From UHGV virus genome UHGV-0138922: DNA of 36,008 nt; one strand, given 5' to 3'. Positions 3,370 to 35,129 of the stretch are shown here, piece by piece. The notes beneath the pieces were generated by a model. That model made no database searches. It had not been told where the DNA came from and saw nothing but the letters and a program-made list of their open reading frames with translations. Within the stretch, counting starts at the first letter, position 1. Every line of letters starts with the position of its first letter. This stretch comes from a virus. Position numbers and translations under genes: made by a program.

Positions 3370-3405
3370 GCGGCCTAAATCGACGTATAACGAGCTAAAA
3401 CAGTT

Positions 3406-3432
3406 AAGGGGTACTTCGTACCCCTTTTTAAT
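3406..3432. terminator. Bidirectional hairpin terminator between convergent genes
   Basis: AAGGGGTAC-ttcg-GTACCCCTT palindrome flanked by A-run and T-run. Confidence 0.6.
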
Positions 3433-3441
3433 TTAATTGCG

Positions 3442-4617
3442 TTAGAGAGCCTCTAAGAGAGTATTAAAGTATTCATCCATTAAATCAGGACTGTCGTCAT
3501 CAATACAGAAAAATTCCGGTTTATTGATGCCGTAGAAGTGAGTATGTAGCTTGAATGTATCGTCATCAAATACATCTTTCGGGGATACCCACATATTAGC
3601 CTCGTCCGGTTGATTGGTTAGGTAGTCATAAACCAGTTGCTGTAAGTGTGGTAACTCATCAATAGTCAGAGTTTCCGACCATCCATCCTTGAAATCTTTG
3701 TAGGGTGCTGCATGAGTCTTGAAGCGTTGTTTTACTTCATGCTCTAAATCAACGGCTTTCCAACCATCCTCAAACTCATGAGTAAAGATTAATCTGTGAG
3801 TGAAGTTGCTCTTTCTGGTTTGCTCTCTCATTCGTTCTTCTGGTTTCCGGGTAGTGATTCCAAATTTAATAAATTTGTCATCTAATAATTGAATGTAGAA
3901 ACTAGCCTTACCCTGATAAGTCCGGTTAGACAGTTGCACCAGTTGGTCTTTAATGCAAAGCGGACAAGTGAAAGAATCAGCACATCTTAAATGAGATTCC
4001 CATTCGTGGTTATGTGTCTTGCAATAGGTTTTAAATTTAACATCCTTTAGGTGTGGGGTGTTTATGATGAATCCTTTGAAGGTGTAAGGCGTACTCTCGC
4101 AACGTGCATTGATGATTGTCTCTTTGTCCTTAATAACTTCATCAAAAGTCTTGCCACTTCTTACCCGTTGGGATTTTTCAGCCATACAGATTTTGCAATC
4201 AAAATCGAAATCATCTTTGAGTGCATGTAATAGAGATGGCGTCATGATTTGATTGTGTTCAGGGCACAAAACACGGGCTTTCGTTCTATTTCGCCCTTTC
4301 CATTCTCCTTGCCATCCGAGGAATTTCTTTCCCTTCTCATTACAACGAGATTCCATTTTCAACCATACAGCCTTTTCAGTCTGGAATAACTCACCCCCGT
4401 TAGTATCTTCCAGTTTGCGTAATTTGTAGTCCTTATATTCTTGTGTATCTAAATTGTAGATTCGAAAGTAAGTGTGATTACCCTTCCACGGTAGGATAAA
4501 TCCACCAAATACGAAAGCAGGTTCCAGTTTAGCGATGATTCGTTGTTGGTACTCTTCCGGCGATAAACCGCGAGTTTTCTTAACAAAAGGAATTTCGGCA
4601 GCGTAAGCAAGTTTCAT
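3442..4617 (-). CDS. Zn-ribbon + GIY-YIG (T5orf172-like) nuclease-domain protein, 391 aa
   Basis: GIY-YIG-like motifs SFYIQ...KFGITTR...E; several CxxC pairs; start moved to the internal ATG at 4617, which has an AGAGGAAA ribosome-binding site (track start 4728 lacks one). Confidence 0.6.
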   Translation of the reverse strand: MKLAYAAEIPFVKKTRGLSPEEYQQRIIAKLEPAFVFGGFILPWKGNHTYFRIYNLDTQEYKDYKLRKLEDTNGGELFQTEKAVWLKMESRCNEKGKKFLGWQGEWKGRNRTKARVLCPEHNQIMTPSLLHALKDDFDFDCKICMAEKSQRVRSGKTFDEVIKDKETIINARCESTPYTFKGFIINTPHLKDVKFKTYCKTHNHEWESHLRCADSFTCPLCIKDQLVQLSNRTYQGKASFYIQLLDDKFIKFGITTRKPEERMREQTRKSNFTHRLIFTHEFEDGWKAVDLEHEVKQRFKTHAAPYKDFKDGWSETLTIDELPHLQQLVYDYLTNQPDEANMWVSPKDVFDDDTFKLHTHFYGINKPEFFCIDDDSPDLMDEYFNTLLEAL

Positions 4618-4676
4618 AGTAGTTTCCTCTAAAATAATAAGCTCACTACTATTTATTAGAGAAAATTGTCTTACTA

Positions 4677-4704
4677 TTGCATTCTCTATCTGAATGTGTA
4701 TAAT
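4677..4704 (+). promoter_or_regulatory. Sigma70-like promoter (TTGCAT-N16-TATAAT)
   Basis: Hexamers read directly from sequence, about 65 nt upstream of gene 4772. Confidence 0.45.
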
Positions 4705-4771
4705 ACGCGACCCTAAATCCCAAACCAACCATATTGAGGTTATGCCTATAAGTTAAAAAAGTGAGGTCTAT

Positions 4772-5341
4772 ATGATTCCAGTAATGGCTAAAGATATTGT
4801 TTTTACTCCTAAATCCTCCCGTGCTGTAACTCCATCGGCATTAGAACAACGCATTCTGACTCACATCAAAGAGAAGGACTTACCGTTAGTCTTTCATGGC
4901 TTTCTGGGTGAGTTTAAAGGGCTTCATTCAAGAATTGCTCTTACATGTACCCGATGCGGCAATAGAGCCGACAAATCAGCTACCAACCTGCTTAATGAAG
5001 GTAAACGCTGTGCATGTCTCAAAAGTGATTACTTTCAATATAAAGCGGGTGTGCCTTATCTCTATGTAATGAAATCAGGGGATATTGGTAAATTTGGTGT
5101 TACAAAGTCAATCATCAAGCGACGCATTAATCTGGGTGTACGCAATCCCGGTCATAACTTTGATATTGTCTTTGCTGGTGAAATGCCATCAATGAAACAT
5201 GCTTTAGCCACTGAAAGAGCAATAAAGAGATTACTGGATGTGGGTATAGGCGGGATTGAATACGGCAAAACTGAAACATTCCACTACTGCAATAAATCAC
5301 TAAACAATATAAAGAATATTGCAAGTGTGGAGTGGAACTAA
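4772..5341 (+). CDS. Zn-ribbon + GIY-YIG nuclease-like protein (189 aa), paralog of 3442-4617
   Basis: CxxC...CxC then PYLYVMKSGDIGKFGVTKS...R...E (GIY-YIG spacing); collinear similarity to the 391-aa protein. Confidence 0.65.
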   Translation: MIPVMAKDIVFTPKSSRAVTPSALEQRILTHIKEKDLPLVFHGFLGEFKGLHSRIALTCTRCGNRADKSATNLLNEGKRCACLKSDYFQYKAGVPYLYVMKSGDIGKFGVTKSIIKRRINLGVRNPGHNFDIVFAGEMPSMKHALATERAIKRLLDVGIGGIEYGKTETFHYCNKSLNNIKNIASVEWN

Positions 5342-6831
5342 TGCAAGATATTAAAATTCATTTTCAAGATTACAGTTTCGTTAAGGTTGATTGCTCTCCT
5401 TCTATCGGAATGGAATTAAGAGATTATTTCTCGTTTGAGGTTGAAGGGGCTAGATTTAGCCCCCGTTACAAGTATTCCGGCTGGGATGGAAAGATAAGAC
5501 TGTTTACGCATGAAAATACCTTGCCAATCGGATTATTGAAAACATTAGGTATCTTCGCTAAAAACATGGGCTATAGCGTATGGGTAGACCCCAGATTGCT
5601 TGAGAAGGAAGATGTAACCAAAGAATCAATTGATTCATGGATTGACTCTTTAGAAGTGTATTCCGGTAGCAATAAAATCAATCCTTACTGGTATCAAAGG
5701 GAGGCAGTATTTCAGGGTATCCATAATCGCCGTAGAATGCTGGTTCTTCCTACCAGTGCCGGAAAGTCATTGATTGCTTGTATGCTGTCTCGTTGGTACT
5801 TAGAGAACTACACCGGAAAGATTCTAATCATTGTCCCGACTACATCGCTGGTGGTTCAAATGAGGGATGATTTTGTCGATTATAGGCTATTCCCTTATGA
5901 AGCAATCCATACAATGATGAGTGGTAGCGGGAAACATCCGGGAGACAGGTTAATCACTGTTTCAACCTGGCAATCAGCTTGCAAGATGCCTCCTGAATGG
6001 TTCCGACAATATGGAATGTTGATAGTTGATGAATCACATCGCGCTAGTGCAAAGAATATCACCAATATCATCAACGGAATGAATCACTGTCAATTCAAGA
6101 TTGGTATGACTGGTTCCCCGAAAGAATCAAAGTGCCATCTCATGCAGTATGTCGGGTTGTTCGGTGATATTCAGAAGATAGTAGCAATCAAGCAATTGAT
6201 GGATGACGGACAAGTTACCCAGCTTAAAATTAATGCTCTCTTCCTTAAGTACAAAGATGAAGAATGTAAAGCAATGCGGGGCAAAGATTATCAGGAAGAG
6301 ATTAAATTCATCAATGCTCATAAGGTAAGGAATAAACTGGCTTGTAATTTGGCCTTAAAACTCGCCAGGAAGCAAGAAAACGTATTTTTGATGTTCCGGT
6401 ACTCTAAGCATGGAAAAATGCTTTATAATGCATTACAGCGCGTTTACGATAAGGTTTATTACGTTTCCAGTGAGATTACCACCGCCGAACGCGATGCCTT
6501 AAAGAAAATGGCTGAAAATGAGAAAGGATTGATTGTAGTTGCTAGCTATGGTGTTTTCTCTACTGGCGTTTCAATTAAGAATCTTCATCATGTTATTTTT
6601 GGTCATCCGGTGAAAGAATCGACCATTGTCCGGCAATCAATAGGACGTGCTCTTAGGAAACATGGTAGTAAGGCAATTGCTGTTGTATGGGATTTGATAG
6701 ATGTGATTTGTTCGAAAGACAAGAAAGGAAAATATACACGCAAGAATTATGCTTTAACTCATGGCCTCCAGAGAATCAATACTTACATATCAGATCGCTT
6801 CGAATATGCCACGAAAACAATCGAGATTTAA
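5341..6831 (+). CDS. uvsW: T4 UvsW-like SF2 (DExH) DNA helicase
   Basis: Walker A LPTSAGKS, motif II LIVDESH, motif III MTGSP, motif VI IGRALRKHG; N-terminal region MQDIKIHFQDYSFVKVDC...WDGKIRLF resembles the UvsW N-terminus as I recall it; ATG overlaps the upstream stop (TAATG); track alternative start is GTG 5332. Confidence 0.82.
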   Translation: MQDIKIHFQDYSFVKVDCSPSIGMELRDYFSFEVEGARFSPRYKYSGWDGKIRLFTHENTLPIGLLKTLGIFAKNMGYSVWVDPRLLEKEDVTKESIDSWIDSLEVYSGSNKINPYWYQREAVFQGIHNRRRMLVLPTSAGKSLIACMLSRWYLENYTGKILIIVPTTSLVVQMRDDFVDYRLFPYEAIHTMMSGSGKHPGDRLITVSTWQSACKMPPEWFRQYGMLIVDESHRASAKNITNIINGMNHCQFKIGMTGSPKESKCHLMQYVGLFGDIQKIVAIKQLMDDGQVTQLKINALFLKYKDEECKAMRGKDYQEEIKFINAHKVRNKLACNLALKLARKQENVFLMFRYSKHGKMLYNALQRVYDKVYYVSSEITTAERDALKKMAENEKGLIVVASYGVFSTGVSIKNLHHVIFGHPVKESTIVRQSIGRALRKHGSKAIAVVWDLIDVICSKDKKGKYTRKNYALTHGLQRINTYISDRFEYATKTIEI

Positions 6832-6836
6832 TAAAT

Positions 6837-6854
6837 AGGGGCTTTAATGCCCCT
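6837..6854 (+). terminator. Hairpin (AGGGGC-tttaat-GCCCCT), weak terminator or attenuator
   Basis: Stem-loop immediately after the helicase stop, followed by a T-rich tract. Confidence 0.35.
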
Positions 6855-6876
6855 TTATTCTACGGAGATTAAAAAA

Positions 6877-7128
6877 ATGATTAGCTTTAAACGTTTTTTG
6901 GTTGAGGCCGCGATCGACGGTTTCATGAGTAAGATTTATTCTTGTAATACTATCGAGGGATTAAATGAACTTGAGGCATATTATGAGAAGCGCAAGAAAG
7001 AAACAGAATTGAAACCTGCTGATGATATTTCGATCCGTGATGCCATCGCCGGACGACGCAAGCAACTGGAAGCGGAGAACGAGCCGGAAGACGATTTTTC
7101 TATCATCAATTTGTGCCAGATAAAATAA
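6877..7128 (+). CDS. Small acidic protein (83 aa)
   Basis: GGAG about 10 nt upstream of ATG 6877 (track start 6847 lacks a ribosome-binding site); followed by a strong terminator. Confidence 0.5.
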   Translation: MISFKRFLVEAAIDGFMSKIYSCNTIEGLNELEAYYEKRKKETELKPADDISIRDAIAGRRKQLEAENEPEDDFSIINLCQIK

Positions 7129-7130
7129 AA

Positions 7131-7153
7131 GCGCCCTTGTGAGGCGCTTTTTT
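7131..7153. terminator. Rho-independent terminator (usable from both strands)
   Basis: GCGCC-cttgtga-GGCGC then TTTTTTT; A-run on the other side. Confidence 0.7.
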
Positions 7154-7173
7154 TGTTATATGTGAATTGATGA

Positions 7174-7527
7174 TCAGCCATTCCATCGAGATTTTTTCGA
7201 CCTGCTATCAATATGCGTAAAGGTTTTATATTTGCCTAAGCCGTATTGAGTAGGATATTTCCCATCAAGATAAGCATGGACAATATCAGGGGAGACACCC
7301 TTGATCACAATGTCAGCCGCACGGCCTCGAACGTGATAGCTGTTGGTTGCACCGCCTACATTCTTGTTATGAGTCGGACAACGGTTCCCACTGTTAATAA
7401 TTACTGGTTTCCCGAAGTGCTCTCGTACATCCTCAAGAATTACCAGTAATTCAGCGTCGATTGTATCATAATCACATTTTCCGCATTTACATTTAAATTC
7501 CTTGCGAGAAAAATGTTTGCTTAACAT
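7174..7527 (-). CDS. Peptidase M15-family (zinc D,D/L,D-peptidase), candidate endolysin
   Basis: SRKEF...CKCGKC...NSGNRCP...SYHVRGRAADI...HID motif pattern typical of Peptidase_M15_3; GGGGGT ribosome-binding site. Confidence 0.7.
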   Translation of the reverse strand: MLSKHFSRKEFKCKCGKCDYDTIDAELLVILEDVREHFGKPVIINSGNRCPTHNKNVGGATNSYHVRGRAADIVIKGVSPDIVHAYLDGKYPTQYGLGKYKTFTHIDSRSKKSRWNG

Positions 7528-7536
7528 ATTACCCCC

Positions 7537-7884
7537 TTAGATCATTTCGAAGATATAACCAATAAAGCGCATACCCTTGATATAATAAGGAGCAGTGCCT
7601 ACACACACCGCGCGTGCATCACCCAGACAGTTAAAGCTATAAGGATTAACTACATCGACTTCTTGCCCTACACGAAAACGATATTTAGGACGTTTAGCCA
7701 ATGTAGCGACACAAAACACGGTCCCTTTTTCATGATCGCGGATACATTCTTTATATTGTTTATGTTTAACTCTCTTCGCCTCAAAATCATGTGTCATGGA
7801 TTCTGGGCTAATGCCATTAATAAAAATACCGGAAAGCTGGTCGACCGGATAAGTAGGAAATTCAGTGAAAATATTTTTAGCCAT
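7537..7884 (-). CDS. Hypothetical protein (115 aa)
   Basis: ORF in the operon, tightly spaced to the peptidase gene. Confidence 0.5.
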   Translation of the reverse strand: MAKNIFTEFPTYPVDQLSGIFINGISPESMTHDFEAKRVKHKQYKECIRDHEKGTVFCVATLAKRPKYRFRVGQEVDVVNPYSFNCLGDARAVCVGTAPYYIKGMRFIGYIFEMI

Positions 7885-7922
7885 GTTATACCCCCATAAG
7901 ATTCTATGAGGGTATTTATGGA

Positions 7923-17865: not shown

Positions 17866-17890
17866 AAAAGCCACCCCGAAGGATGGCTTA
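17866..17890 (-). terminator. Strand-specific rho-independent terminator (UUCG loop)
   Basis: Minus-strand RNA AGCCAUCC-UUCG-GGGUGGCU (one G.U wobble, a C.A mismatch on plus strand) followed by a U-run. Confidence 0.7.
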
Positions 17891-17894
17891 AAAA

Positions 17895-18017
17895 TTATTT
17901 GGTCTTGCGGCCTCGTTTTGCTGTGGCTTTCGCCGTAACTTCTTCTACTTCTGGAATCACTACAGCTTCATGTTCTGGTAGCGGTTCAGGTTCTGGTAAA
18001 TGAAGTTCTTCGTTAGT
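17895..18017 (-). CDS. Putative UGA-readthrough C-terminal extension of major tail protein (40 codons: TNEELHLPEPEPLPEHEAVVIPEVEEVTAKATAKRGRKTK)
   Basis: In frame with the upstream gene after UGA, no internal stop, UAA stop 4 nt before the terminator hairpin; similar in peptide and nucleotide blocks to the capsid extension. Confidence 0.5.
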   Translation of the reverse strand, partial: TNEELHLPEPEPLPEHEAVVIPEVEEVTAKATAKRGRKTK

Positions 18018-18494
18018 TCAACCGCCAGTGGTAAACACTTCCTGTTTCAGCGGAGCACCATCAACAGCAAAGGTAAACTCTTTAGTTACCACTTCTTCAT
18101 CGCCACCGTTCATAGCAACTTTAGAAATAAAGCCGTTGTAAGCGATACGAATACCAGTCTGTTTGCCAGCGTCCACATAATATTCTACTTTGATTTGGCA
18201 GCGAGTGCCGTCTTCGGCAGCTTTTGCGAGCTTCTCGTGTACCGCATCACCTGGGATATAGTTAACGGTCAGAGTCAGATCTTCAACGTTCAGTTTACCA
18301 ACCAGCTTACGGTTATACTGAGAAGAATAGCTCTTAACTTCTACCGTCCCGCGAGACAAAGAATATTCAGGAAAACCAGCGCACTCTTTAATTTCTTCGT
18401 ATGCTTCATCAGCAAGATCGGTATTAGTGGTATCAGCGTGATAGAACAGACTTACCAGACCACCAGTAAAAATATCTTTGAATTGTTGAGACAT
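18018..18494 (-). CDS. Major tail (tube) protein
   Basis: 158 aa, immediately upstream of the G/T chaperones and tape measure gene; paralogous to the N-terminal part of 21920-22753. Confidence 0.6.
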   Translation of the reverse strand: MSQQFKDIFTGGLVSLFYHADTTNTDLADEAYEEIKECAGFPEYSLSRGTVEVKSYSSQYNRKLVGKLNVEDLTLTVNYIPGDAVHEKLAKAAEDGTRCQIKVEYYVDAGKQTGIRIAYNGFISKVAMNGGDEEVVTKEFTFAVDGAPLKQEVFTTGG

Positions 18495-18567: not shown

Positions 18568-21500
18568 TTATTCGTTTTCTACCCAGATTTCACGCGGAAC
18601 GAAGTTAGAATCTTGAATGTTCTTAAAGATTTTACCGCTAGAGTGAAGTTGGATTTTAATCCATCCACCGTTACCAGCCAGGTAATAGTTCCCGTCATTG
18701 GCAAAACGGATAAAATGGTTAAATCCTGCGGCGTCAAGAATCCACACATTACGGAAGCGGAGATCTTGTGGTAAACCTCCGGTCTGGGTATTACCAGGGA
18801 GAGTACCGGACCAGATTTTAGTACAACCTTTCGTCTTTTTGATATAACGACCGTCAAAGTTACCGTAATCAGTTGGTGTAACTCGACCAGTTACGTTTAC
18901 TGCTTTGTTTGCGGTGATTGCACCGGAAGTAAAACGCATTACTGCCACATTGTTAGCATATACATCTAAAATACCGTCGCCGTTTTGCTTAAAGCCAGTA
19001 TCACTATCACCCAAAACAATTGAGTTGCCACCTAATCCATTAGCAACGTTTACACCAAATGCGCTAATTTGCGGGGTAGTAACCTTACCAGAAACGTTCA
19101 AGTTTTGTGCGTTGATTTGTCCATTTACACTAAACTGAATCGCTGTAGTTCCTGGACCACCTGCACGCTGTGTATAGAAGTGCCAACCGCTTTCATCAGC
19201 CCACTCTAAAACCTGTTTACGATCAGCATTACCCCAAACACGACAGTTAAACGAGGATTGTGCTGTACCTTTACCCCATGTCAATTTACCACCAACTTCA
19301 AAGTCTCCTAAGAAGTTTGCTTTCAATCCACCAGTAGCCATATTACGCTCGGTGCTGAAATGACGTCCTTTGCTATCTTCCACATACAGGACGTTATCAC
19401 GACCGTTACTGCTATCACCCCAATGGTTAAAGCGAATAAAATCGCGGGATTGTCCAGCAAGTCCGGCTTCCATCGTTATATGCTGTCCAGTATTATATAA
19501 GTTACCGCCAGTATAAACATGTCCACCAAATCTAGCTGCTTTGCTTGCACCTTCTAAGGTCAATGCGGATTTATTGGAATCACCACCTAAATTAACGTTA
19601 CCGGAACTAAATTCATAAATGAATGGACGGTTTCCAGTCCAGCTACCCCATTTATCATTTTCGGCAGTAGACAGAAGATAGGTTTTAACACCATCATTTC
19701 GCCAGAATGCACCGTAATTACCGTAAATCATACGATATGCATCAGCGTTAGTTGAAATATATTGCCCGTTGGTATGGACAATTTTTGTTGCACCAACATT
19801 AAGAGAGATCTGACCGCTTTGTTCTAACGCAAAGTTGTTTTTACCAGCATCACTATAGATCTGGAATGCGTTAGTGTCGGCATTACCAAAACCAAACCAT
19901 GATTGACGAACGTTAGCACCGTTACGACGATCCCAATATTCAACAAGGTTACTATTCCCTGTCTGGCGTTCTAAACGAATATTACCACCATCAAGAACAG
20001 CACGACCAGTTTGCAGCGTGCGGTCGGTAATTTTAAGAACTTCGTTTGAGTCAGTAGTGCCAGTAGCTAGGCGGTACATGCTACCCTGAACAGTTTCATG
20101 CCAAATAGTATGACCTGATTTACTACGGAACTGACGAAGATATTTTTTACCATCACCAGTATCATTACACAAACTGATAATATCGTAAGTTCCCTGTGTA
20201 TTATCATCAAAACGAATAGTTCCGGCTTTGTTCTCTGTGTTAAACATGGTAATTACTTTACCATCAGTAACACCAGTGGACGGCTTAACGAGAGTTATTT
20301 CAGGAACGTCATGTACCGTCAGTGTAACATCGTTAGTTTTACCATATTCGACAATAACGTTATCAGTATAACGACCGTAGTTAACGTAGATATCGTAGTT
20401 ATCACCGGAAGTGTTAACCGCAAATACTTGATGAATATTTTTAGCATTTCGACGATAAGCCGCAATACTAACGCCTTTCGGGTTATTGTTACCGGAACGG
20501 ATAACAATTTCTACAAAATCAACCTGATCATAGGAGTTAACGTTATAGCCGTTACCACCGAAGATACGAAGCATTACCATTCGACCATTCTGTGGGATCG
20601 TGGCGGTTGCAATCTTGAAATAACCACGAGAAGCATCACCAGCAGGAACAGACATTTTAACGTTCTTAATGAACATCTGGTCTACTGCGGCCTTGCTATA
20701 CACACCCAATTCATCGGGAGTCGGCTTATCCCCTTCGTGATACATGCGGTAACTGAATCGCTTATTACCATCTTTATCAAAGCCATAGGTTTTAACCTGA
20801 GATGAGCTAGACCCATAATGGAACTCAAAACCGCGACCGTGAGCTTTACCGCCAGAATGAGGAATGTTCAGGATCAAGTTACCCCATCCTTCGGCATTAT
20901 TCGGACGAAACGCACCAAAATAATCAAGGTTACGTGCGCCAGCATCATCAAAGTAGTTAGCTGTTTTGGTTAACAGATACCCGTGATGATAGGTATTGGT
21001 ATTCTTCTTGATGTAAATTGCATCGTTGCTACCTTCAATACCATCAATTCGCTGGTTAGCTGCGGCAATCGCTGCATCGGTGGCAGATTTATTTTGGTCT
21101 ACCTTGTTGTTAATTGCGGTGTGGTTGCTATTAACAGTGCCAGTAAGGTTACTGATTTTAGTATCAGCGTCTTTCTTGTTATTTGCTACCGTGGTTTCAA
21201 TAGCCGATTTGTTGGACGCAACCGTGCTAGTTAAGCTAGAGATCTTGCTATCAGCATCAGACTTGTTAGCGGTAACAGTCTTAGTTAAGTTGCTAACGTT
21301 AGTGTTAGTGGTATCAACTCGGCTATTAATTGCGGTGTTATTGTCAGTAACCGTAGTGGTTAAAGCTGTGATTTTGTTGTCCGCATCTCGTTTGTTATTA
21401 GCTACGGTAGTTTCAATAGCTGATTTGTTTGCCGAAACTGTCCCCGTAAGGTTATTGATCTTGGTGTCAGCGTCGGTTTTATTTGCCGTGACTGTCTGGG

Positions 21501-21846
21501 TTAAGTTACTAACAGTGGTGTTAGTAGCATCAATGCGCTTATTGGTTGCGGTGTCTTTAGTGGTAATGGTGTTATTCAGTTCAGATTTAGCGGTAGCCAG
21601 AGCGTTAGCAGCTTCGGTTTTATTTGCCGCGATAGTAGAATCAGTAGTTTTCTTGTTATTGTCTACTTTTGTGTTTAAAGCATTATGACTTTCAGGAGAA
21701 ACACTTACTTGAACTACTGCGTTATTTTTATCTTTGGTATAAATTACATGGTCTGCCATCTGAATAGCGATTTCACCGACCTGTAATTGTTCCGGCGTTG
21801 GCTTTTTACCAGCCGTCTGTGTGCGTTTAAATTGGATTGATTGCAT
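18568..21846 (-). CDS. Tail fibre protein (1092 aa) with N-terminal Thr/Asn-rich repeat shaft
   Basis: N-terminal KPTPEQLQVGE-type motif, tandem ~66-aa repeats, Gly-rich C-terminal region; GTGAGGTG ribosome-binding site. Confidence 0.7.
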   Translation of the reverse strand: MQSIQFKRTQTAGKKPTPEQLQVGEIAIQMADHVIYTKDKNNAVVQVSVSPESHNALNTKVDNNKKTTDSTIAANKTEAANALATAKSELNNTITTKDTATNKRIDATNTTVSNLTQTVTANKTDADTKINNLTGTVSANKSAIETTVANNKRDADNKITALTTTVTDNNTAINSRVDTTNTNVSNLTKTVTANKSDADSKISSLTSTVASNKSAIETTVANNKKDADTKISNLTGTVNSNHTAINNKVDQNKSATDAAIAAANQRIDGIEGSNDAIYIKKNTNTYHHGYLLTKTANYFDDAGARNLDYFGAFRPNNAEGWGNLILNIPHSGGKAHGRGFEFHYGSSSSQVKTYGFDKDGNKRFSYRMYHEGDKPTPDELGVYSKAAVDQMFIKNVKMSVPAGDASRGYFKIATATIPQNGRMVMLRIFGGNGYNVNSYDQVDFVEIVIRSGNNNPKGVSIAAYRRNAKNIHQVFAVNTSGDNYDIYVNYGRYTDNVIVEYGKTNDVTLTVHDVPEITLVKPSTGVTDGKVITMFNTENKAGTIRFDDNTQGTYDIISLCNDTGDGKKYLRQFRSKSGHTIWHETVQGSMYRLATGTTDSNEVLKITDRTLQTGRAVLDGGNIRLERQTGNSNLVEYWDRRNGANVRQSWFGFGNADTNAFQIYSDAGKNNFALEQSGQISLNVGATKIVHTNGQYISTNADAYRMIYGNYGAFWRNDGVKTYLLSTAENDKWGSWTGNRPFIYEFSSGNVNLGGDSNKSALTLEGASKAARFGGHVYTGGNLYNTGQHITMEAGLAGQSRDFIRFNHWGDSSNGRDNVLYVEDSKGRHFSTERNMATGGLKANFLGDFEVGGKLTWGKGTAQSSFNCRVWGNADRKQVLEWADESGWHFYTQRAGGPGTTAIQFSVNGQINAQNLNVSGKVTTPQISAFGVNVANGLGGNSIVLGDSDTGFKQNGDGILDVYANNVAVMRFTSGAITANKAVNVTGRVTPTDYGNFDGRYIKKTKGCTKIWSGTLPGNTQTGGLPQDLRFRNVWILDAAGFNHFIRFANDGNYYLAGNGGWIKIQLHSSGKIFKNIQDSNFVPREIWVENE
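21140..21565 (-). repeat. Tandem coding repeats (~200 bp unit, ~2 copies, with ~22-codon sub-periodicity) inside the fibre gene
   Basis: Protein repeats VSNLTQTVTANKTDADTKINNLTGTVSANKSAIETTVANNKRDADNKITAL... / VSNLTKTVTANKSDADSKISSLTSTVASNKSAIETTVANNKKDADTKISNL... Confidence 0.7.
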
Positions 21847-21919: not shown

Positions 21920-22753
21920 TCAGTATTCCCCGAAGTCGATTCTATCAGTCTTAGCAACCGCATTAATTTCGGCTGGCGTTGGCTTCTCATTTGTTGTATA
22001 GACTTTAATCCATTCCGATTTTCCGTTGTCCTGAATATTTCGTACCCGCAAACGTGGAGCACCGGAAGTATTACACGTTAATTGCCATGCGCCATGCTCA
22101 TTAGCTTGAAGATGAATTAACGATGTATCAGCACCATAAGGGTTAGTGCTAGCCGTTCCTTTGTAGGTTACGAAGCGGTTTCCTGTCAGAGATTCACTAT
22201 CAATAGGTCCGGTGAAAGGATTTACACCAGCGCCCAGACCAAAATCACCCTGACGCAAGATCCGGCCTTCGGTTGCAATACCCCTTGCAAGAATCCCGCC
22301 ATCTGGTTCTAGTTTGAATTCCATAGTTACAGCTTTGTTATCACCGCCACGAGTTTTATGGCTAGTGACATAAGCATCATAAATGACATAGTAACCAGTG
22401 TTAGCAGCACTATAGCCAGAGTTCACAACATAGAACATTCTAAAGCGCAAAGGTGTTTTATCCTCTACGGCTTTCATCAACATTGCTTGATGTTCGTCGT
22501 CAAGAACACGGTTTACTGTGAGCGTAGTCGGTTCAAGTTTGCGATAGCCAGCCAGCTTACCAGTCGCATCATGATCATACTCTTCGTAAGTCTCGATCTC
22601 GGTTGATTCTGTCAGCGTAGGAAAGGCTGCGATGTTCTCCATACCACTAAAGCTAGGATCGAAAAAGTCGACCTGATTGTCTAGCTGGTTAGAGATCGAC
22701 ACTTCAACATGCGACCCCGTAAAAATATCTAAGTTATCATGTGTAATATTCAT
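21920..22753 (-). CDS. Tail tube-like protein with extra C-terminal domain (277 aa), paralog of the major tail protein
   Basis: Shares DIFTG, LTLTVN and VDG/EPDG blocks with 18018-18494; C-terminal ~120 aa additional. Confidence 0.55.
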   Translation of the reverse strand: MNITHDNLDIFTGSHVEVSISNQLDNQVDFFDPSFSGMENIAAFPTLTESTEIETYEEYDHDATGKLAGYRKLEPTTLTVNRVLDDEHQAMLMKAVEDKTPLRFRMFYVVNSGYSAANTGYYVIYDAYVTSHKTRGGDNKAVTMEFKLEPDGGILARGIATEGRILRQGDFGLGAGVNPFTGPIDSESLTGNRFVTYKGTASTNPYGADTSLIHLQANEHGAWQLTCNTSGAPRLRVRNIQDNGKSEWIKVYTTNEKPTPAEINAVAKTDRIDFGEY

Positions 22754-22762
22754 TATTACCCC

Positions 22763-23185
22763 TTAAAAACGCGCTAGATAAGAAAATTTAAGACTAAGTG
22801 TCCCAACGATACCCCCATCACTAGAATCATCGTCATAATCGGTATTAGAAGCGACTGGAGTTATATCTGAAATGGAGAAGCCCAAATCTTTAAAACGTGG
22901 GTTATCTGGCTGAATCTGGATTATCTGGCAAATACCCTCATGAATTTTCGTTTCATGAATCTGAGAATATAATTGCATTTCGATAACGCATTCAGCTTGC
23001 ATTGCATTACCACCACGGACCCTAGTGTAAGTCTCATTCATTCCGGTAATCCAACACACCACGTCATCGCTAAAACCAGTTTGAGTTTGTTCTACGTTTA
23101 AAGCCAGACCTAGATCTTGTTCGATAATATCCTGTAAAGCACGTTTAATCTTAAGACGTGGCATATTATTAACGGTAGCGAGCAT
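22763..23185 (-). CDS. Head-tail joining / neck protein (putative)
   Basis: Position between capsid and tail genes; AGGGGGTG ribosome-binding site supports the internal ATG near 23185. Confidence 0.4.
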   Translation of the reverse strand: MLATVNNMPRLKIKRALQDIIEQDLGLALNVEQTQTGFSDDVVCWITGMNETYTRVRGGNAMQAECVIEMQLYSQIHETKIHEGICQIIQIQPDNPRFKDLGFSISDITPVASNTDYDDDSSDGGIVGTLSLKFSYLARF

Positions 23186-23459
23186 GAGCACCCCCTGCTA
23201 AAGTGATAAAGCAATCAGTGGTATTATCACCATTGCGCTTAATGTATTGAACTTTGAAACGCTGACTTTCTACAATGACAATATCACCTTGCTTTAAATC
23301 TCCCTCACGACAGAATAAGAATTCTGTTTCTGTCATTACCCCTTGTTCGTCGGTAGTAGTAATTTCATGGTAAGCACGAATTGATTTACCACCTTCCACC
23401 ACAAAAACAGGAGCACTCTTAAACATTCGATTTAATTGTGATTCTGATAATTTGAACAT
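23169..23459 (-). CDS. Head-tail adaptor / head completion protein (putative)
   Basis: First gene after the capsid terminator; GGGGGTG ribosome-binding site before the ATG. Confidence 0.4.
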   Translation of the reverse strand: MFKLSESQLNRMFKSAPVFVVEGGKSIRAYHEITTTDEQGVMTETEFLFCREGDLKQGDIVIVESQRFKVQYIKRNGDNTTDCFITLAGGAHARYR

Positions 23460-23495
23460 AGTCACCCCCTTTTATGGAGTATTTACATACAAAAA

Positions 23496-23517
23496 AGCCC
23501 CACCGTTAGGCAGGGCT
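23496..23517 (-). terminator. Strand-specific rho-independent terminator
   Basis: Minus-strand RNA AGCCCUGCC-UAAC-GGUGGGGCU with two G.U wobbles, followed by a U-run. Confidence 0.65.
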
Positions 23518-23522
23518 AATTA

Positions 23523-23609
23523 TTATTTTGCTTTCGGCGGGCGACCCGCCTTTTTAGCTGTGGCTTTCACCGTAACTACCGGAATTTCTTCCGGCAATTC
23601 TTCGTTATT
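23523..23609 (-). CDS. Putative UGA-readthrough C-terminal extension of the capsid polyprotein (28 codons: NNEELPEEIPVVTVKATAKKAGRPPKAK)
   Basis: In frame after UGA, UAA stop immediately before the terminator; parallels the major tail extension. Confidence 0.5.
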   Translation of the reverse strand, partial: NNEELPEEIPVVTVKATAKKAGRPPKAK

Positions 23610-25613
23610 TCATTCAGCGCCAATCTGAAGAACTTTCAGAGCTTCCGGCTGAGTAACAACATAATCCAGATCTACCCAGATACGCGGAACGATAGCAGAC
23701 TGTGCACGGTAGGTAGTGTCGTCCATATCCAATTCCAGACCGCCCCACTCACCGATAGTGATGCCGGAGAAGTCACCCAGAACGATGTGATCTGCCGGAA
23801 TAACACCAGAAGTAACTACTTCGTAACCAGCCAGTTTGCCGTTTTCGATGATATAACCGGAAACGCCGTTATCTTTCAGGGTAGATTCCAGTTCGGCAGC
23901 AGTTGCACCGCTCATCGCAAACTTGATCGCCTGAGCAGGAACGCCAGCGTCGGTCAGTTTAGCAATTTCTTTCAGGAAATCTTTGTAAGAGAAAGCAGCT
24001 TTCTTCTCAACGCGGCTAGCGTCTACCAGTTGCTTAACCAGACCAGCCGGACCACGAGCATTTTCTTTGTCAGACAGAATCAGTTGTTCCAGTTTGATAC
24101 GAACAGCTTTGTTAATGTGGTCAGTGATCAGGGTAGCGATACCCGGAACGGTTTTCAGAGACTGACGGCTAATCGGGTTGCCACCAGCGAAAGTCTTAGG
24201 AGACAGTTTCACGTTCGCAAATTCAGCTTTGCTTTCCGGCGCAGCACCGTTTTCATCAACGAAGCCGAAAGCATCAACGCTGGATTTAGTCATTTTTGGA
24301 ATAGCAGTCGGAGAAGTCAAGCCACTATAAACAGTCACACCCAGACGACCCAGAACAGATTCCGGCATCAGCATTTCGATGTAGGATTCAGTCATCAGTT
24401 TTTCGTCGGTGATAGCAGTCAGATCGGCTTTGGTGTTACCAGCAGCAGCAGCACGCATAGCAGCAGCCGGAACGAATACAGAGCCACCACGAGCAGCACG
24501 ACCACGCTGCATAGTTGCAGTAGCAGCCATTGCAGAAAACTCGGCTTCGTTAGCACCCAGAGCTTCACCATCTACCAGAGAGCGAATTACGTTGTTCAGG
24601 TCAAAAGTTTTTTCCATTTTAGAGTCCTTAATTTGTTCGTTATTACGTTGAGCATTGGTAATGTTATTTAGTGCCTTAGTGCGGAATGCTTCCGGCGTCA
24701 TATCTTTAACTGCCAATGCGCGTTTTAATTCTTCGTCGTCAATATTTAGTTCGCGTGCAATTTCGCGAATTTCTAATTCGTCTTCTTCGGAACGTTCAGC
24801 CACTTCAATTTTTTCTTCTTCAACCGGAGCAGCTTCACGTTCTTCTGTCATTTCTTCTTCTTCCCGAACAGTTCCACGATCATCATCAGAACTTTCAGAA
24901 TGTTCAGCGTCTTTTCCGTCTTCGAGATTTTCATTTTCTTCATTCTCTTCAACTTGGCGCTCTTGAGTTTCTTCTACTTCCGGTTCTTTATTTTCTTCTA
25001 CCGGAGTTTCTTCAACCTGAGCGACTTCTTTTTCTTCGTCTTTAACTTGTTCGATTTGTTCTTTAGTCATATCGCGTTTAGCCTCCAAATTAACTGTGAT
25101 AGTATTTAGAGAGCGATTTAGACCGACAGAATCGTCTGCGGGCACAGACACCCATGAAATCTCATGAGGAATCCACTTAGTAACAATCAATTGTCCTTTA
25201 GCGTAATCGATGTGATATTCTTTAATGTCATAACCGACAGAAATTTTTTCCATCGTACCTTCAATGACTTTATTACGAATATCATTAGCCAAAGTACCAT
25301 GCTTAGAGAATTTAACAGTAGCACGGCCTACTTTATCCGCATCGATTCGAGCGTTACAGACAACACCAATGTGATTATCGAAATTATGATTGAACAGCAA
25401 CGGAGCGTTATTATTCAGGCGAGACAGATCAACCGCTTCCGGTGTATGTAACAGAATTTCATCTAATACCACCATCTCTTGATTTTGCTCATCCCAGAAT
25501 TGGCGCTGGTAAGGCTGTTCACTGGAGAAAGCAATTTCAAATTCGTATTGATCGTTATGCCCTTCGTTAATAACTCCACCGTAACCGTTAAGATCGCGGC
25601 GAAATTTAAGCAT
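23610..25613 (-). CDS. Prohead protease - acidic scaffold-like linker - HK97-fold major capsid protein (single 667-aa ORF)
   Basis: N-terminus resembles HK97-type prohead protease (LLFNHNFDNHIG, ISVGYD, HEISWVSVPAD); ~150-aa Glu-rich linker; C-terminal ~330 aa HK97-like capsid domain; AAGGTGA ribosome-binding site. Confidence 0.8.
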   Translation of the reverse strand: MLKFRRDLNGYGGVINEGHNDQYEFEIAFSSEQPYQRQFWDEQNQEMVVLDEILLHTPEAVDLSRLNNNAPLLFNHNFDNHIGVVCNARIDADKVGRATVKFSKHGTLANDIRNKVIEGTMEKISVGYDIKEYHIDYAKGQLIVTKWIPHEISWVSVPADDSVGLNRSLNTITVNLEAKRDMTKEQIEQVKDEEKEVAQVEETPVEENKEPEVEETQERQVEENEENENLEDGKDAEHSESSDDDRGTVREEEEMTEEREAAPVEEEKIEVAERSEEDELEIREIARELNIDDEELKRALAVKDMTPEAFRTKALNNITNAQRNNEQIKDSKMEKTFDLNNVIRSLVDGEALGANEAEFSAMAATATMQRGRAARGGSVFVPAAAMRAAAAGNTKADLTAITDEKLMTESYIEMLMPESVLGRLGVTVYSGLTSPTAIPKMTKSSVDAFGFVDENGAAPESKAEFANVKLSPKTFAGGNPISRQSLKTVPGIATLITDHINKAVRIKLEQLILSDKENARGPAGLVKQLVDASRVEKKAAFSYKDFLKEIAKLTDAGVPAQAIKFAMSGATAAELESTLKDNGVSGYIIENGKLAGYEVVTSGVIPADHIVLGDFSGITIGEWGGLELDMDDTTYRAQSAIVPRIWVDLDYVVTQPEALKVLQIGAE

Positions 25614-33985: not shown

Positions 33986-34028
33986 TCACCTTTCACTGAG
34001 AATTATATGATGGCTTTAAAAATAAAAA

Positions 34029-34057
34029 AGCCTCCCTGTTGGCGCAAGGAGGCTTTT
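34029..34057 (+). terminator. Rho-independent terminator
   Basis: AGCCTCC...GGAGGCT stem followed by TTTT. Confidence 0.55.
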
Positions 34058-34103
34058 GGTATGAAACATTAAAAACTAACACAGAGTATTCAGGAGTATT
34101 TAT

Positions 34104-35129
34104 ATGAAAAATTCTAAGCGCATCACCTTCAACCTGTTCATCAAATCCAATGGCAAACTGAACATTACTGTTATGGAAGGTAAAGCAAGCAAACAAGACA
34201 AATCCTTTGAAGTAGTATCCGGTAAGACTCTGACCGAAATGCGTCAGAATGCTGGCATCAAAGACGGTGCTGAATGGCAGATCACTAACCGTTTCGACAA
34301 ACGTCACGTTAAACCTACACTGGTAGAAGGTGAATCCGTTTATTGCTTCGCTCGTGCTGTTAAAGCTGATGAGACTTACTATCTCGCTGTTGTTAAAACT
34401 GCTTCCGGCTTCCGTGCTGTAATGCATCACAAGAGCAAGCGTAACGAATACGGTGTAGAGACCCAGGAAGTTGCAAAACGCTTCCGTACTGTTGCTACTG
34501 AATCCACTGTAAAGGATGTTTCTGGTACTGTTAACACCGCTAAAGGTGGTTCCTTCTACAACCATGCATTACAGGTTACTTCCTCCTTCTTCTGCAAAAA
34601 AGAAGCACAGAAAGAAGTTGCTCCGGTGGTAGTTGAAGAAGTTAAAGAAGAAGTTGCAGTGGTTGAATCTTCCGAAGTTGAAGCACTGAAAGCTGAACTG
34701 ACAGCAGTTAAAGCGGAAAATGCTTCCCTGAAAGAAGAAAACGCATCTCTGAAAGCAGAACTGGCAGCACAGGAAACCACTTTCGAAGCAGCGGTTGAAG
34801 TTGAAGCAGTTGAAGAAAAATCCATTGATGAAGAACTGGAAGAACTCCTTAACTATCGCTGGGGTAACGGTGAAGTAGAAGAACAGGAAAACGAGAAAGA
34901 AGCTGATCCGGTAGTAGTTCCGGTTGAAGTTGAAGCAGAATCCGCACCAGTTACTAACTTTGAAACCCTGCGCAATAACTTTATGGCTAAATTCAAAACT
35001 ACTTGGGAAGATACCGAAGAAGAACAAGAAGATATTGAAGTAAACGAAGACGAGATCCGAGAAGCACAGATGGCACTGCATGACGCTATCTATGACACTA
35101 ACTACAGCGCCTACGCATACGCAGCTTAA
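34104..35129 (+). CDS. Acidic coiled-coil protein (341 aa) with host-optimised codon usage; function unknown
   Basis: CAGGAG ribosome-binding site; codons dominated by CGT/CTG/GGT/TTC/AAC/GAA unlike neighbouring phage genes; C-terminal half Glu/Ala/Val-rich heptads. Confidence 0.65.
   Translation: MKNSKRITFNLFIKSNGKLNITVMEGKASKQDKSFEVVSGKTLTEMRQNAGIKDGAEWQITNRFDKRHVKPTLVEGESVYCFARAVKADETYYLAVVKTASGFRAVMHHKSKRNEYGVETQEVAKRFRTVATESTVKDVSGTVNTAKGGSFYNHALQVTSSFFCKKEAQKEVAPVVVEEVKEEVAVVESSEVEALKAELTAVKAENASLKEENASLKAELAAQETTFEAAVEVEAVEEKSIDEELEELLNYRWGNGEVEEQENEKEADPVVVPVEVEAESAPVTNFETLRNNFMAKFKTTWEDTEEEQEDIEVNEDEIREAQMALHDAIYDTNYSAYAYAA

What the first reader, a model, noticed from the sequence alone, without database searches (positions are those of the whole stretch)
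23610..25613. Prohead protease, scaffold-like acidic linker and HK97-fold capsid protein fused in one ORF
A single uninterrupted 667-aa frame contains an HK97-type prohead protease-like N-terminal domain, a ~150-residue Glu-rich coiled-coil linker (EEKEVAQVEETPVEENKEPEVEE...) and a C-terminal HK97-like capsid domain. The whole assembly machinery would be delivered as one self-processing polyprotein, and it is additionally tagged by the readthrough extension.
Basis: partly seen in the sequence, partly recalled or inferred. Interest (0 to 1): 0.5.

Follow-up and report, generated by a model that had tools for sequence, protein, structure and literature searches.

The report
Capsid–protease fusion gene with leaky-stop tail
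This E. coli prophage gene is an ordinary member of a very common family that fuses the head-maturation protease, a scaffold and the capsid protein in one reading frame, but comparison with relatives suggests it also makes shorter products from internal starts and, through a leaky UGA stop, a minor capsid form carrying a short tail that also follows the phage's major tail gene.

Summary
The 667-aa ORF is real (minus strand, 23610-25613). It carries an S78/HK97-gp4-type protease domain (aa ~21-165; H76, S125 and E151 invariant), a disordered acidic linker (168-272, net charge -29), a helical scaffold-like segment, and an HK97-fold capsid domain (~400-667).

The fusion itself is already known and very common. 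PHROG 617 covers its full length, 442 cluster representatives score below E 1e-30, IMG/VR holds at least 586 loci, and papers use the term 'major capsid and protease fusion'. It is not a sequencing artefact.

Two further layers are new, but rest on comparative evidence only:
- In-frame ATGs just after the protease domain carry a Shine-Dalgarno far more often than neighbouring codons (odds ratio 7.8, p 6.5e-16). Here that site is Met182 with GGAGG. This points to nested protease-less products, so the gene probably makes more than one polyprotein.
- In about 50 loci the gene ends in TGA-A followed by an open, coding-like extension of 28-45 codons. Every indel is a multiple of 3. The extension survives a swap to a capsid gene only 37% identical, and a homologous tag follows the major tail gene after its own TGA-A.

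Most likely reading: UGA readthrough makes minor, C-terminally tagged head and tail proteins.

The parts
23610..25613 (-). Fusion ORF of 667 aa, ATG to TGA: protease, linker, scaffold-like segment and capsid domain
   Evidence: An identical protein is in NCBI as 'phage major capsid protein [E. coli]'.
25119..25553 (-). Prohead serine protease domain (aa ~21-165). Candidate catalytic residues are H76 (25386-25388), S125 (25239-25241) and E151 (25161-25163).
   Evidence: Pfam S78 E 1.2e-9. H76, S125 and E151 are invariant in 20 fusions of 26-45% identity. hhalign to HK97 gp4 aligns H76 with gp4 H65 and S125 with the Ser of 'GMSVGF'. AF2 pLDDT is about 88.
25068..25086 (-). Candidate internal start: GGAGG (25082-25086), 11 nt, then ATG of Met182 (25068-25070). 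It would give a 486-aa protease-less linker-scaffold-capsid product.
   Evidence: odds ratio 7.8, p 6.5e-16 across 76 loci. Met182 is kept in 42 of 42 clade ORFs with GGAGG or GGGGG upstream.
24798..25112 (-). Acidic low-complexity linker, aa 168-272 (net charge -29), predicted disordered
24423..24797 (-). Helical scaffold/delta-like segment plus propeptide (aa 273-~397). The inferred maturation cleavage lies near aa 390-400.
   Evidence: AF2 helices at 276-321 and 339-368, with low confidence at 390-408. The solved R4C capsid chain 8gta_A equals residues 362-629 of R4C's 629-aa fusion ORF, and its residue 11 aligns with query residue 408.
24615..24629 (-). Second, weaker candidate internal start: AAGGA (24625-24629) and ATG of Met333 (24615-24617)
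   Evidence: bin 130-185: odds ratio 2.6, p 0.002. Met333 is kept in 40 of 42 clade ORFs with AAGGA retained although the intervening codons differ.
23613..24422 (-). HK97-fold major capsid domain (inferred mature protein, aa ~398-667)
23609..23612 (-). Leaky-type stop: TGA (23610-23612) followed by A (23609)
   Evidence: TGA-A in every one of about 50 loci. None of 75 distant relatives uses TGA-A. 27 of 32 long ORFs of this prophage end in TAA.
23520..23609 (-). In-frame extension NNEELPEEIPVVTVKATAKKAGRPPKAK (28 codons, 23526-23609) plus double stop TAATAA (23520-23525)
23574..23599 (-). Hairpin AAUUGCCGGAA-GAAA-UUCCGGUAGUU starting 11 nt after the UGA. Its role is uncertain.
   Evidence: z -3.4. 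The unrelated long module has its own hairpin, but the tail-gene copy has none.
23490..23517 (-). Intrinsic terminator, 5 nt after the TAATAA
17895..18020 (-). Homologous tag after the major-tail-like gene (18018-18494): TGA-A (TGA at 18018-18020, A at 18017), then 40 codons TNEELHLPEPEPLPEHEAVVIPEVEEVTAKATAKRGRKTK (17898-18017), then TAA (17895-17897). A terminator follows at about 17862-17889.

Best explanation
The gene is a genuine member of the widespread 'major capsid and protease fusion' family of tailed phages.

Core reading (shown or well founded):
- An HK97-gp4-type serine protease, an acidic disordered linker, a helical scaffold-like segment and an HK97-fold capsid domain lie in one frame.
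- The gene sits where lambda has C, Nu3, D and E, between a lambda-family portal gene and an FII-like gene.
- By analogy with HK97, and with the solved R4C capsid, the N-terminal part faces the prohead interior. After assembly the protease removes everything N-terminal of about residue 390-400, leaving a capsid protein of about 270 aa.

Two inferred layers:
1. About 0.5 likely. Ribosomes also start at Met182, and perhaps at Met333, giving protease-less scaffold-capsid proteins. Protease would then be sub-stoichiometric, as it is in HK97 (about 60 protease copies per 415 capsid subunits).
2. About 0.7 likely. A small fraction of ribosomes read the UGA-A stop, probably as Trp, and add a tail of 28-45 residues: an acidic, Pro-rich spacer, then VTAKATAK, then a basic tip. 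The major tail gene receives a homologous tail in the same way, so a few head and tail-tube subunits would display the same tag.
For: Architecture.

Catalytic residues.

Family size and single-ORF integrity:
- Many annotated phages carry it.
- 442 representatives score below E 1e-30.
- At least 586 IMG/VR loci encode it.
- 75 of 75 distant relatives have no internal stop, and 42 clade ORFs are intact.
- The literature already uses the term (PMC8601537).

Processing: PDB chain 8gta_A equals residues 362-629 of the R4C fusion ORF.

Internal starts:
- 47 of 76 loci have an SD+ATG 5-70 codons after the protease 'PAD' motif.
- In codons 5-40 after that motif, 51% of ATGs have an SD against 12% of other codons, while inside the two domains ATGs carry an SD only at background rate (odds ratio 0.8-0.9).
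- Met182 is conserved in the clade.
- Protease is sub-stoichiometric in HK97 and D3 (PMC12749128).

Readthrough:
- TGA-A is universal in the clade.
- 23 nucleotide versions of 84, 126, 129, 132 or 135 nt, plus one of 99 nt, are all multiples of 3 with no in-frame stop. The other two frames contain stops in every version, and the next 75 nt of intergenic DNA has 1-2 nt indels.
- The capsid frame is the best coding frame in 23 of 23 versions, at gene-like scores.
- The stop and frame survive replacement by a capsid gene only 37% identical.
- A homologous TGA-A tag follows the tail gene in 8 loci, again with in-frame lengths only.
- TGA is the leakiest E. coli stop and is read mainly as Trp, while a +4 T tightens termination (PMC11126739).
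Against: There is no protein-level evidence for any product of this prophage, and no isolated phage in the collection is a close relative (best 43% identity).

Protease domain:
- The fold was not confirmed by structure search. Capsid hits filled both lists, and the single-sequence model failed.
- The hhalign probability to gp4 is only 78%.

Internal start:
- The SD-to-ATG spacing at Met182 is 11 nt, which is long.
- 29 of 76 loci lack such a site under my definition.
- The loci are not phylogenetically independent.

Extension:
- pN/pS is 0.70 for the long versions, so the peptide sequence is only weakly constrained.
- Part of the 'synonymous' variation also preserves a hairpin (C-G to T-A, 23536-23550).
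- The conserved GTTACGGCGAAAGCC contains a small GAAA hairpin, so RNA-level selection is a confounder.
- The tag occurs only in this E. coli prophage group.
Confidence: 0.8

Rival explanations
1. A single polyprotein only. Every subunit is made full length with protease at 1:1, and the internal SD-like motifs are by-products of linker composition.
For: Only one ORF is annotated in all records. Glu-rich linkers create GGAG or GAGG strings, with a background of 11-12% in that region. 29 of 76 loci lack a site.
Against: The SD-ATG association is specific to the domain boundary (odds ratio 7.8) and vanishes later in the linker (odds ratio 1.1 for codons 75-130) although the composition is similar. 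The sequences after these ATGs look like N-termini with normal SD spacing. Studied HK97-like proheads hold far fewer protease than capsid subunits.
Confidence: 0.4
2. The post-stop stretch is not translated. It is a conserved 3'-UTR and terminator cassette (RNA or DNA function) that was duplicated after two highly expressed genes, and its open frame is incidental.
For: Both copies start exactly at the stop codon and end at a terminator. Hairpins are present. There is a compensatory C-G to T-A change in the 23536-23550 hairpin. pN/pS is about 0.7 in the long versions.
Against: At least 6 independent length changes in the capsid copy, and 3 or more in the tail copy, are all multiples of 3, while the adjacent non-coding DNA shows 1-2 nt indels. 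No version has a stop in frame 0, and every version has stops in the other two frames. Codon usage is gene-like in frame 0 only. The acidic/Pro then basic character is kept across unrelated sequences. Hairpins are not shared by all modules.
Confidence: 0.2
3. The extension is translated by readthrough, but the peptide is unimportant. Ribosomes that pass the UGA stop at TAAT only 5-6 nt before the terminator stem and mask it. This would let a set fraction of transcription continue into the low-copy downstream genes (translation-coupled antitermination).
For: In both genes the extension's stop lies 5-6 nt from the terminator stem, whatever the extension length. Both genes are high-copy structural genes followed by low-copy ones. 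Weak peptide constraint fits this idea.
Against: VTAKATAK and the charge pattern are conserved across modules and across both genes. A fraction of a few percent seems too small to set downstream expression. There is no direct evidence.
Confidence: 0.15
4. The ORF is an assembly or sequencing artefact hiding a frameshift, so protease and capsid are really two genes.
For: None found. In a few genomes the gene is split, but by IS elements (H45, H60 and L008).
Against: There are 42 independent intact ORFs of 664-670 aa at 88-96% DNA identity. 75 of 75 distant relatives are single ORFs. A full-length PHROG profile matches.
Confidence: 0.01
5. The UGA encodes selenocysteine, directed by the hairpin that starts 11 nt downstream.
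For: In the short module the hairpin spacing resembles that of the E. coli SECIS (SECIS spacing from my own knowledge).
Against: No Rfam SECIS match even at E<=10. The loop is GAAA with no bulged U. The long module's hairpin starts about 18 nt after the UGA, and the tail copy has no hairpin.
Confidence: 0.02

Closest known systems
Capsid-protease fusion genes of other tailed phages: PHROG 617/4523, Dinoroseobacter phage R4C gp6, phiHAP-1, VP882, Rhodobacter RcC-cluster phages, Xanthomonas FoX/Murka, and the actinophage 'major capsid and protease fusion protein'
   Same: Same domain order in one ORF. The match is full length at 27-43% identity. The gene sits after a portal gene. In R4C the mature capsid protein is only the C-terminal 268 aa.
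   Different: None of 75 sampled relatives ends in TGA-A with a long in-frame extension; the median is 2 codons to the next stop.
HK97 gp4 protease plus gp5 (delta domain fused to the capsid protein)
   Different: In HK97 the protease is a separate gene and is packaged at about 60 copies per 415 capsid subunits (PMC12749128). Here it is covalently joined through a 105-residue acidic linker.
Nested in-frame protease/scaffold genes: lambda C/Nu3 and herpesvirus UL26/UL26.5 (from my own knowledge)
   Same: An internal in-frame start after the protease part gives an abundant protease-less scaffold. The neighbouring genes here are lambda-like (gpA terminase, lambda-family portal, FII-like).
   Different: Here the nested product would also include the capsid protein itself. 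The internal start is inferred from SD+ATG statistics only.
Recoded C-terminally extended coat and tail proteins: T7/T3 gene 10A/10B, Lactobacillus phage A2, and Listeria phages A118, A500 and PSA (PMC5009743)
   Same: A minor, longer form of the major capsid protein is made from the same gene. In A2 and the Listeria phages the major tail protein is extended as well, which matches the pairing seen here.
   Different: Those cases use -1 or +1 frameshifting and often add an Ig-like domain. Here the extension is in frame behind a UGA, is short and probably disordered, and is homologous between the two genes.
Q-beta A1 (coat readthrough protein of an RNA phage; from my own knowledge)
   Same: A leaky UGA at the end of the coat gene is read at a few percent to give a minor extended coat protein in the virion.
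   Different: Q-beta is an ssRNA levivirus with an unrelated coat fold and a long (about 200 aa) folded extension. No homology.

Membership tests
Peptidase_S78 (HK97 gp4-type prohead serine protease) | Profile match above the curated threshold | tested here: met
   PF04586: 39 bits against a cut-off of 21, E 1.2e-9, aa 40-162
Peptidase_S78 (HK97 gp4-type prohead serine protease) | Catalytic His and Ser (gp4 H65/S114) conserved | tested here: met
   H76 aligns with gp4 H65 and S125 with the Ser of 'GMSVGF'. H76, S125 and E151 are invariant in 20 diverse fusions.
Peptidase_S78 (HK97 gp4-type prohead serine protease) | Assemblin-like protease fold | tested here: inconclusive
Peptidase_S78 (HK97 gp4-type prohead serine protease) | Proteolytic activity on the capsid precursor | not testable with these tools
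   Needs expression of wild type against S125A
HK97-fold major capsid protein (PF05065) | Profile match and HK97 fold | tested here: met
Capsid-protease fusion family (PHROG 617) | Both domains in one uninterrupted ORF, conserved in relatives | tested here: met
   phrog_617 covers aa 21-662, E 1.3e-92. 75 of 75 distant and 42 clade ORFs are intact.
Capsid-protease fusion family (PHROG 617) | N-terminal protease and scaffold part absent from the mature virion | not testable with these tools
   Shown only for relative R4C, where chain 8gta_A equals residues 362-629 of 629. Inferred here.
Programmed stop-codon readthrough (Q-beta A1 type) | Conserved leaky stop and context | tested here: met
   TGA-A in about 50 of 50 capsid loci and 8 of 8 tail loci. 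The context is UGA-A(A/C)U in all.
Programmed stop-codon readthrough (Q-beta A1 type) | Downstream ORF kept open and in frame through divergence | tested here: met
   All length variants are multiples of 3, and no version has a frame-0 stop. Codon usage is gene-like in frame 0.
Programmed stop-codon readthrough (Q-beta A1 type) | Purifying selection on the extension peptide | tested here: inconclusive
   pN/pS is 0.28 for short versions and 0.70 for long versions, against 0.26 for the capsid C-terminus. The comparison is confounded by mosaicism and RNA hairpins.
Programmed stop-codon readthrough (Q-beta A1 type) | Extended protein detected, and readthrough efficiency above background | not testable with these tools
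   Needs mass spectrometry or reporter assays
Nested in-frame internal initiation (lambda C/Nu3 type) | Conserved RBS and start codon at the domain boundary | tested here: met
   Odds ratio 7.8, p 6.5e-16. 47 of 76 loci. 42 of 42 in the clade.
Nested in-frame internal initiation (lambda C/Nu3 type) | Shorter product actually made | not testable with these tools
   Needs start-site profiling or N-terminal mass spectrometry
Bacterial SECIS / selenoprotein | SECIS element after the UGA | tested here: not met
   No Rfam match at E<=10. The hairpins differ in position and loop, and the tail copy has none.

The most novel reading that the evidence does not exclude
This E. coli siphovirus-type prophage group uses programmed UGA readthrough, not frameshifting, to put the same short tag (an acidic, Pro-rich spacer plus a Lys/Arg-rich tip) on a few copies of both its major capsid protein and its major tail protein. 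As far as I know and could find in the held literature, that would be the first readthrough-made virion protein variant in a tailed dsDNA phage. Together with nested internal starts, the one capsid ORF would yield up to four or more products: full length, Met182 form, Met333 form, each with or without the tag.
Probability: 0.6. Interest if true: 0.65.

Novelty: new variant of a known kind. Interest (0 to 1): 0.45.

Why it matters
The fusion itself adds nothing new. It should simply be annotated 'major capsid and protease fusion protein'.

The two inferred layers would matter if confirmed.
- A conserved internal start would explain how fusion-type phages avoid a 1:1 protease load, and it predicts products that current annotation misses in hundreds of phages.
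- A readthrough tag shared by head and tail proteins would extend the known theme of recoded extensions on both coat and tail proteins (A2, PSA, A118) to a new mechanism in E. coli, where it is easy to test. It would also give a natural low-copy display site on both capsid and tail tube, and it would flag TGA-A ends of structural genes as something gene callers should not ignore.

Tried and rejected
- Structure model of the protease domain alone (aa 1-175, no alignment): pLDDT 30.6, unusable.
- phmmer of aa 1-175 against PDB sequences: no hit.
- Genome-contig scan: only one distant Pseudomonas locus.
- Database search with capsid C-terminus + W + extension: the word index could not seed, so the result is uninformative.
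- Scans with patterns from inside the extension: only one new locus, and no variant with a sense codon at the TGA position.
- Suppressor tRNA: none. The single ARAGORN call is a doubtful 91-nt tRNA-Glu inside an ORF.
- Rfam on the stop region: only sub-threshold, terminator-like noise.
- Selenocysteine: rejected.
- A separate small gene in the extension: there is no ATG. The ATGA overlap at the stop gives only 2 codons (read from the sequence). Antisense frames are not consistently open.
- A hairpin as a general readthrough stimulator: not supported, because the tail copy lacks one.
- An HFTV1 ribosome-profiling preprint that might bear on internal starts could not be opened.
- The CBASS paper concerns a protease-scaffold fusion, not this architecture.
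Full report
**Observation**

The ORF is real. It runs ATG to TGA at 23610-25613 on the minus strand and encodes 667 aa.
- Pfam finds Peptidase_S78 at aa 40-162 (E 1.2e-9, above the curated cut-off) and Phage_capsid at aa 409-663 (E 8.4e-27).
- PHROG 617 'major head protein' aligns over aa 21-662 (E 1.3e-92), and phrog_4523 is literally named 'major head and protease protein'.
- The only PDB sequence match is the capsid protein of roseophage R4C, 8gta.

An AlphaFold model built on 20 diverse homologues gives the following picture:

| Residues | Prediction |
|---|---|
| 21-165 | confident beta-rich domain (pLDDT about 88) |
| 168-272 | disordered |
| 276-321, 339-368 | helices |
| 390-408 | low confidence |
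| 410-667 | confident HK97-fold domain |

**Protease**

H76, S125 and E151 are invariant across 20 fusions of 26-45% identity. A profile alignment to HK97 gp4 places H76 on gp4 H65 and S125 on the serine of 'GMSVGF' (probability 78%). I could not confirm the fold by structure search: capsid hits filled both lists, and a single-sequence model of the domain failed.

**How ordinary the fusion is**

- The window is an E. coli prophage. An identical protein is in NCBI as 'phage major capsid protein'.
- 44 of 5426 complete E. coli genomes hold at least 80% of the queried stretch (ORF plus short flanks), and all 55 matching genomes lie at 80-99% DNA identity.
- The same architecture is annotated in phiHAP-1, VP882, R4C, RcCronus, FoX/Murka ('major capsid protein and protease'), ECO1230-10, Arya, Persinger and others.
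- An exhaustive HMMER search finds 442 representatives of 50%-identity clusters below E 1e-30. Nearly all of the top 150 are 560-890 aa and match both ends.
- IMG/VR holds at least 586 loci.
- All 75 distant genes examined, and 42 clade genes, are single uninterrupted ORFs, so a hidden frameshift is excluded.

The gene order here is gpA-type terminase, W-like, lambda-family portal, fusion, FII-like. The fusion therefore sits where lambda has C, Nu3, D and E.

**Processing**

The deposited R4C capsid chain (268 aa) is exactly residues 362-629 of R4C's 629-aa fusion ORF. The mature protein therefore lacks the protease, linker and scaffold part. By alignment, the cleavage in our protein falls near residue 390-400. 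This is inference for our protein.

**Nested starts (inferred)**

Met182, at the end of the protease domain, is preceded by GGAGG. I tested whether this pattern recurs across 76 fusion loci.
- SD-preceded in-frame ATGs cluster at the annotated start, at 14-60 codons after the protease 'PAD' motif (47 of 76 loci), and weakly around +145-175, which is Met333 here.
- Composition control:

| Region (codons after PAD) | ATGs with an SD | Other codons with an SD | Odds ratio | p |
|---|---|---|---|---|
| 5-40 | 51% | 12% | 7.8 | 6.5e-16 |
| 75-130 (later linker) | 8% | 7% | 1.1 | 0.51 |
| 130-185 (Met333 site) | 17% | 7% | 2.6 | 0.002 |
| 185-480 (capsid domain) | 3% | 4% | 0.9 | 0.77 |
| -140 to -5 (protease domain) | 8% | 9% | 0.8 | 0.76 |

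- In the E. coli clade, Met182 and its SD are kept in 42 of 42 ORFs. Met333 with AAGGA is kept in 40 of 42.

HK97 and D3 proheads hold only about 60-90 protease copies for 415-535 capsid subunits (PMC12749128). A protease-less nested product, as in lambda C/Nu3, would give a comparable ratio here. No product has been observed.

**Readthrough extension**

After the TGA come 28 sense codons (NNEELPEEIPVVTVKATAKKAGRPPKAK), then TAATAA, then an intrinsic terminator. I collected about 50 independent loci using seeds upstream, downstream and inside the extension. The findings:

1. Every locus has TGA-A. None of 75 distant relatives does; they use TAA or mostly TGA-T, with a median of 2 codons to the next stop. 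In this prophage, 27 of 32 long ORFs end in TAA.
2. There are 23 nucleotide versions of 84, 126, 129, 132 or 135 nt, plus one of 99 nt. All are multiples of 3. None has a stop in frame 0, and all have stops in the other two frames. The next 75 nt of true intergenic DNA shows 1-2 nt indels. At least six independent in-frame events give a chance of roughly (1/3)^6, about 0.001 (my arithmetic).
3. A codon-usage model trained on the prophage's other genes picks the capsid frame in 23 of 23 versions, at 0.30-0.58 bits per codon. Real genes average 0.43.
4. L048 and L136 carry a fusion capsid gene only 37% identical to ours, yet keep TGA-A and the in-frame tag.
5. The major-tail-like gene (18018-18494, phrog_158) also ends in TGA-A, followed by a homologous tag (TNEEL...VTAKATAKRGRKTK), TAAT and its own terminator. 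In 7 further loci that tag is 36, 39 or 41 codons long, always in frame.

There are counter-points.
- pN/pS is 0.28 for short versions but 0.70 for long versions.
- Some variation also preserves hairpins.
- The tag is restricted to this prophage group.
- No suppressor tRNA, Rfam element or SECIS-like feature explains it.
- TGA is the leakiest E. coli stop and is read mainly as Trp, and a +4 T improves termination (PMC11126739).

**Mechanism and rivals**

The most likely reading is that a few percent of ribosomes read UGA-A and produce minor, C-terminally tagged capsid and tail-tube subunits. By analogy with T7 gp10B and encapsulins (from my own knowledge), the C-terminus of the HK97 fold is external, so the tag would be displayed on the surface. 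Its role is unknown; a weak, charge-based surface adhesion is one possibility.

Two rivals remain open.
- A ribosome-dependent masking of the terminator could be the real function, because both extension stops lie 5-6 nt before the terminator stem.
- The stretch could be an untranslated 3' cassette.

**Comparison with what is known, and novelty**

The closest precedent is the pair of recoded, extended coat and tail proteins of Lactobacillus phage A2 and Listeria phages A118, A500 and PSA, together with T3/T7 10B. All of these work by frameshifting (PMC5009743). Readthrough-made coat variants are known from Q-beta (my own knowledge). My searches of the held literature found no report of stop-codon readthrough in a capsid or tail gene of a tailed phage.

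**Verdict**

The finding as written describes a known, common architecture and deserves low interest on its own. The gene's conserved leaky-stop tag, shared with the tail gene, and its probable nested starts make it a new variant of known kinds that is worth a bench test.

Noticed in passing
window 17895-18494 (minus strand): The 158-aa major-tail-like gene ends in TGA-A, followed by a 40-codon in-frame tag homologous to the capsid extension, then TAA and a terminator. In 7 other loci the tag is 36, 39 or 41 codons long, always in frame.
   Followed up: yes
window 18018-18494, 18568-21846 and 21920-22753 (minus strand): Two phrog_158 tail-tube paralogues (158 aa and 277 aa, the longer one with an extra C-terminal part) flank a 1092-aa tail-fibre gene that contains repeated TVTANK-DAD-KI motifs. 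This is an unusual order for a siphovirus tail module.
   Followed up: partly
window 23536-23550: A GGCGGG-TCG-CCCGCC hairpin lies inside the extension. Relatives have GGTGGG-ACG-TCCACC, a compensatory C-G to T-A change. On the plus strand it reads as a terminator-like hairpin followed by a T-run, so it might stop antisense transcription.
   Followed up: partly
L135 (Escherichia phage DCP80, PQ671644.1, record positions 1734-10859): A 141-kb record classified as a T4-like Straboviridae phage begins with a lambda-like head module (terminase, portal, a 666-aa fusion gene 43% identical to ours) annotated mostly as 'hypothetical'. This may be a chimeric assembly. Its fusion gene ends in TAA-A with no extension.
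   Followed up: partly
H45, H60 and L008 (E. coli chromosomes NZ_CP195866, NZ_OW848980 and NZ_CP124819): In some genomes the fusion gene is interrupted or truncated by IS1, IS903B or IS3 elements. The annotation pipeline then names the remnant 'HK97 family phage prohead protease'. In L008 the prophage remnant lies next to ynfE.
   Followed up: no
window 22908-22998 (plus strand): ARAGORN calls a 91-nt tRNA-Glu(ttc) lying antisense inside the 142-aa ORF at 22763-23191. This is probably a false positive.
   Followed up: no
window 17126-17814 (minus strand): A tail assembly chaperone (102 aa, phrog_344) is followed by a 116-aa ORF upstream of the tape-measure gene. The usual G/GT -1 frameshift was not examined.
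   Followed up: no
window 33993-34565 (minus strand): This is the third ORF in the window ending in TGA-A, but only 8 in-frame codons follow. It was not examined further.
   Followed up: no
A1 alignment, C-termini (P0123, P0130, P0133): Some distant fusion proteins carry short Ala/Lys-rich C-terminal tails inside the ORF (...PAEVKAALKASA, ...AATVQATKK). These are reminiscent of the ...TAKATAKK... tag that lies behind the stop in the E. coli clade.
   Followed up: no
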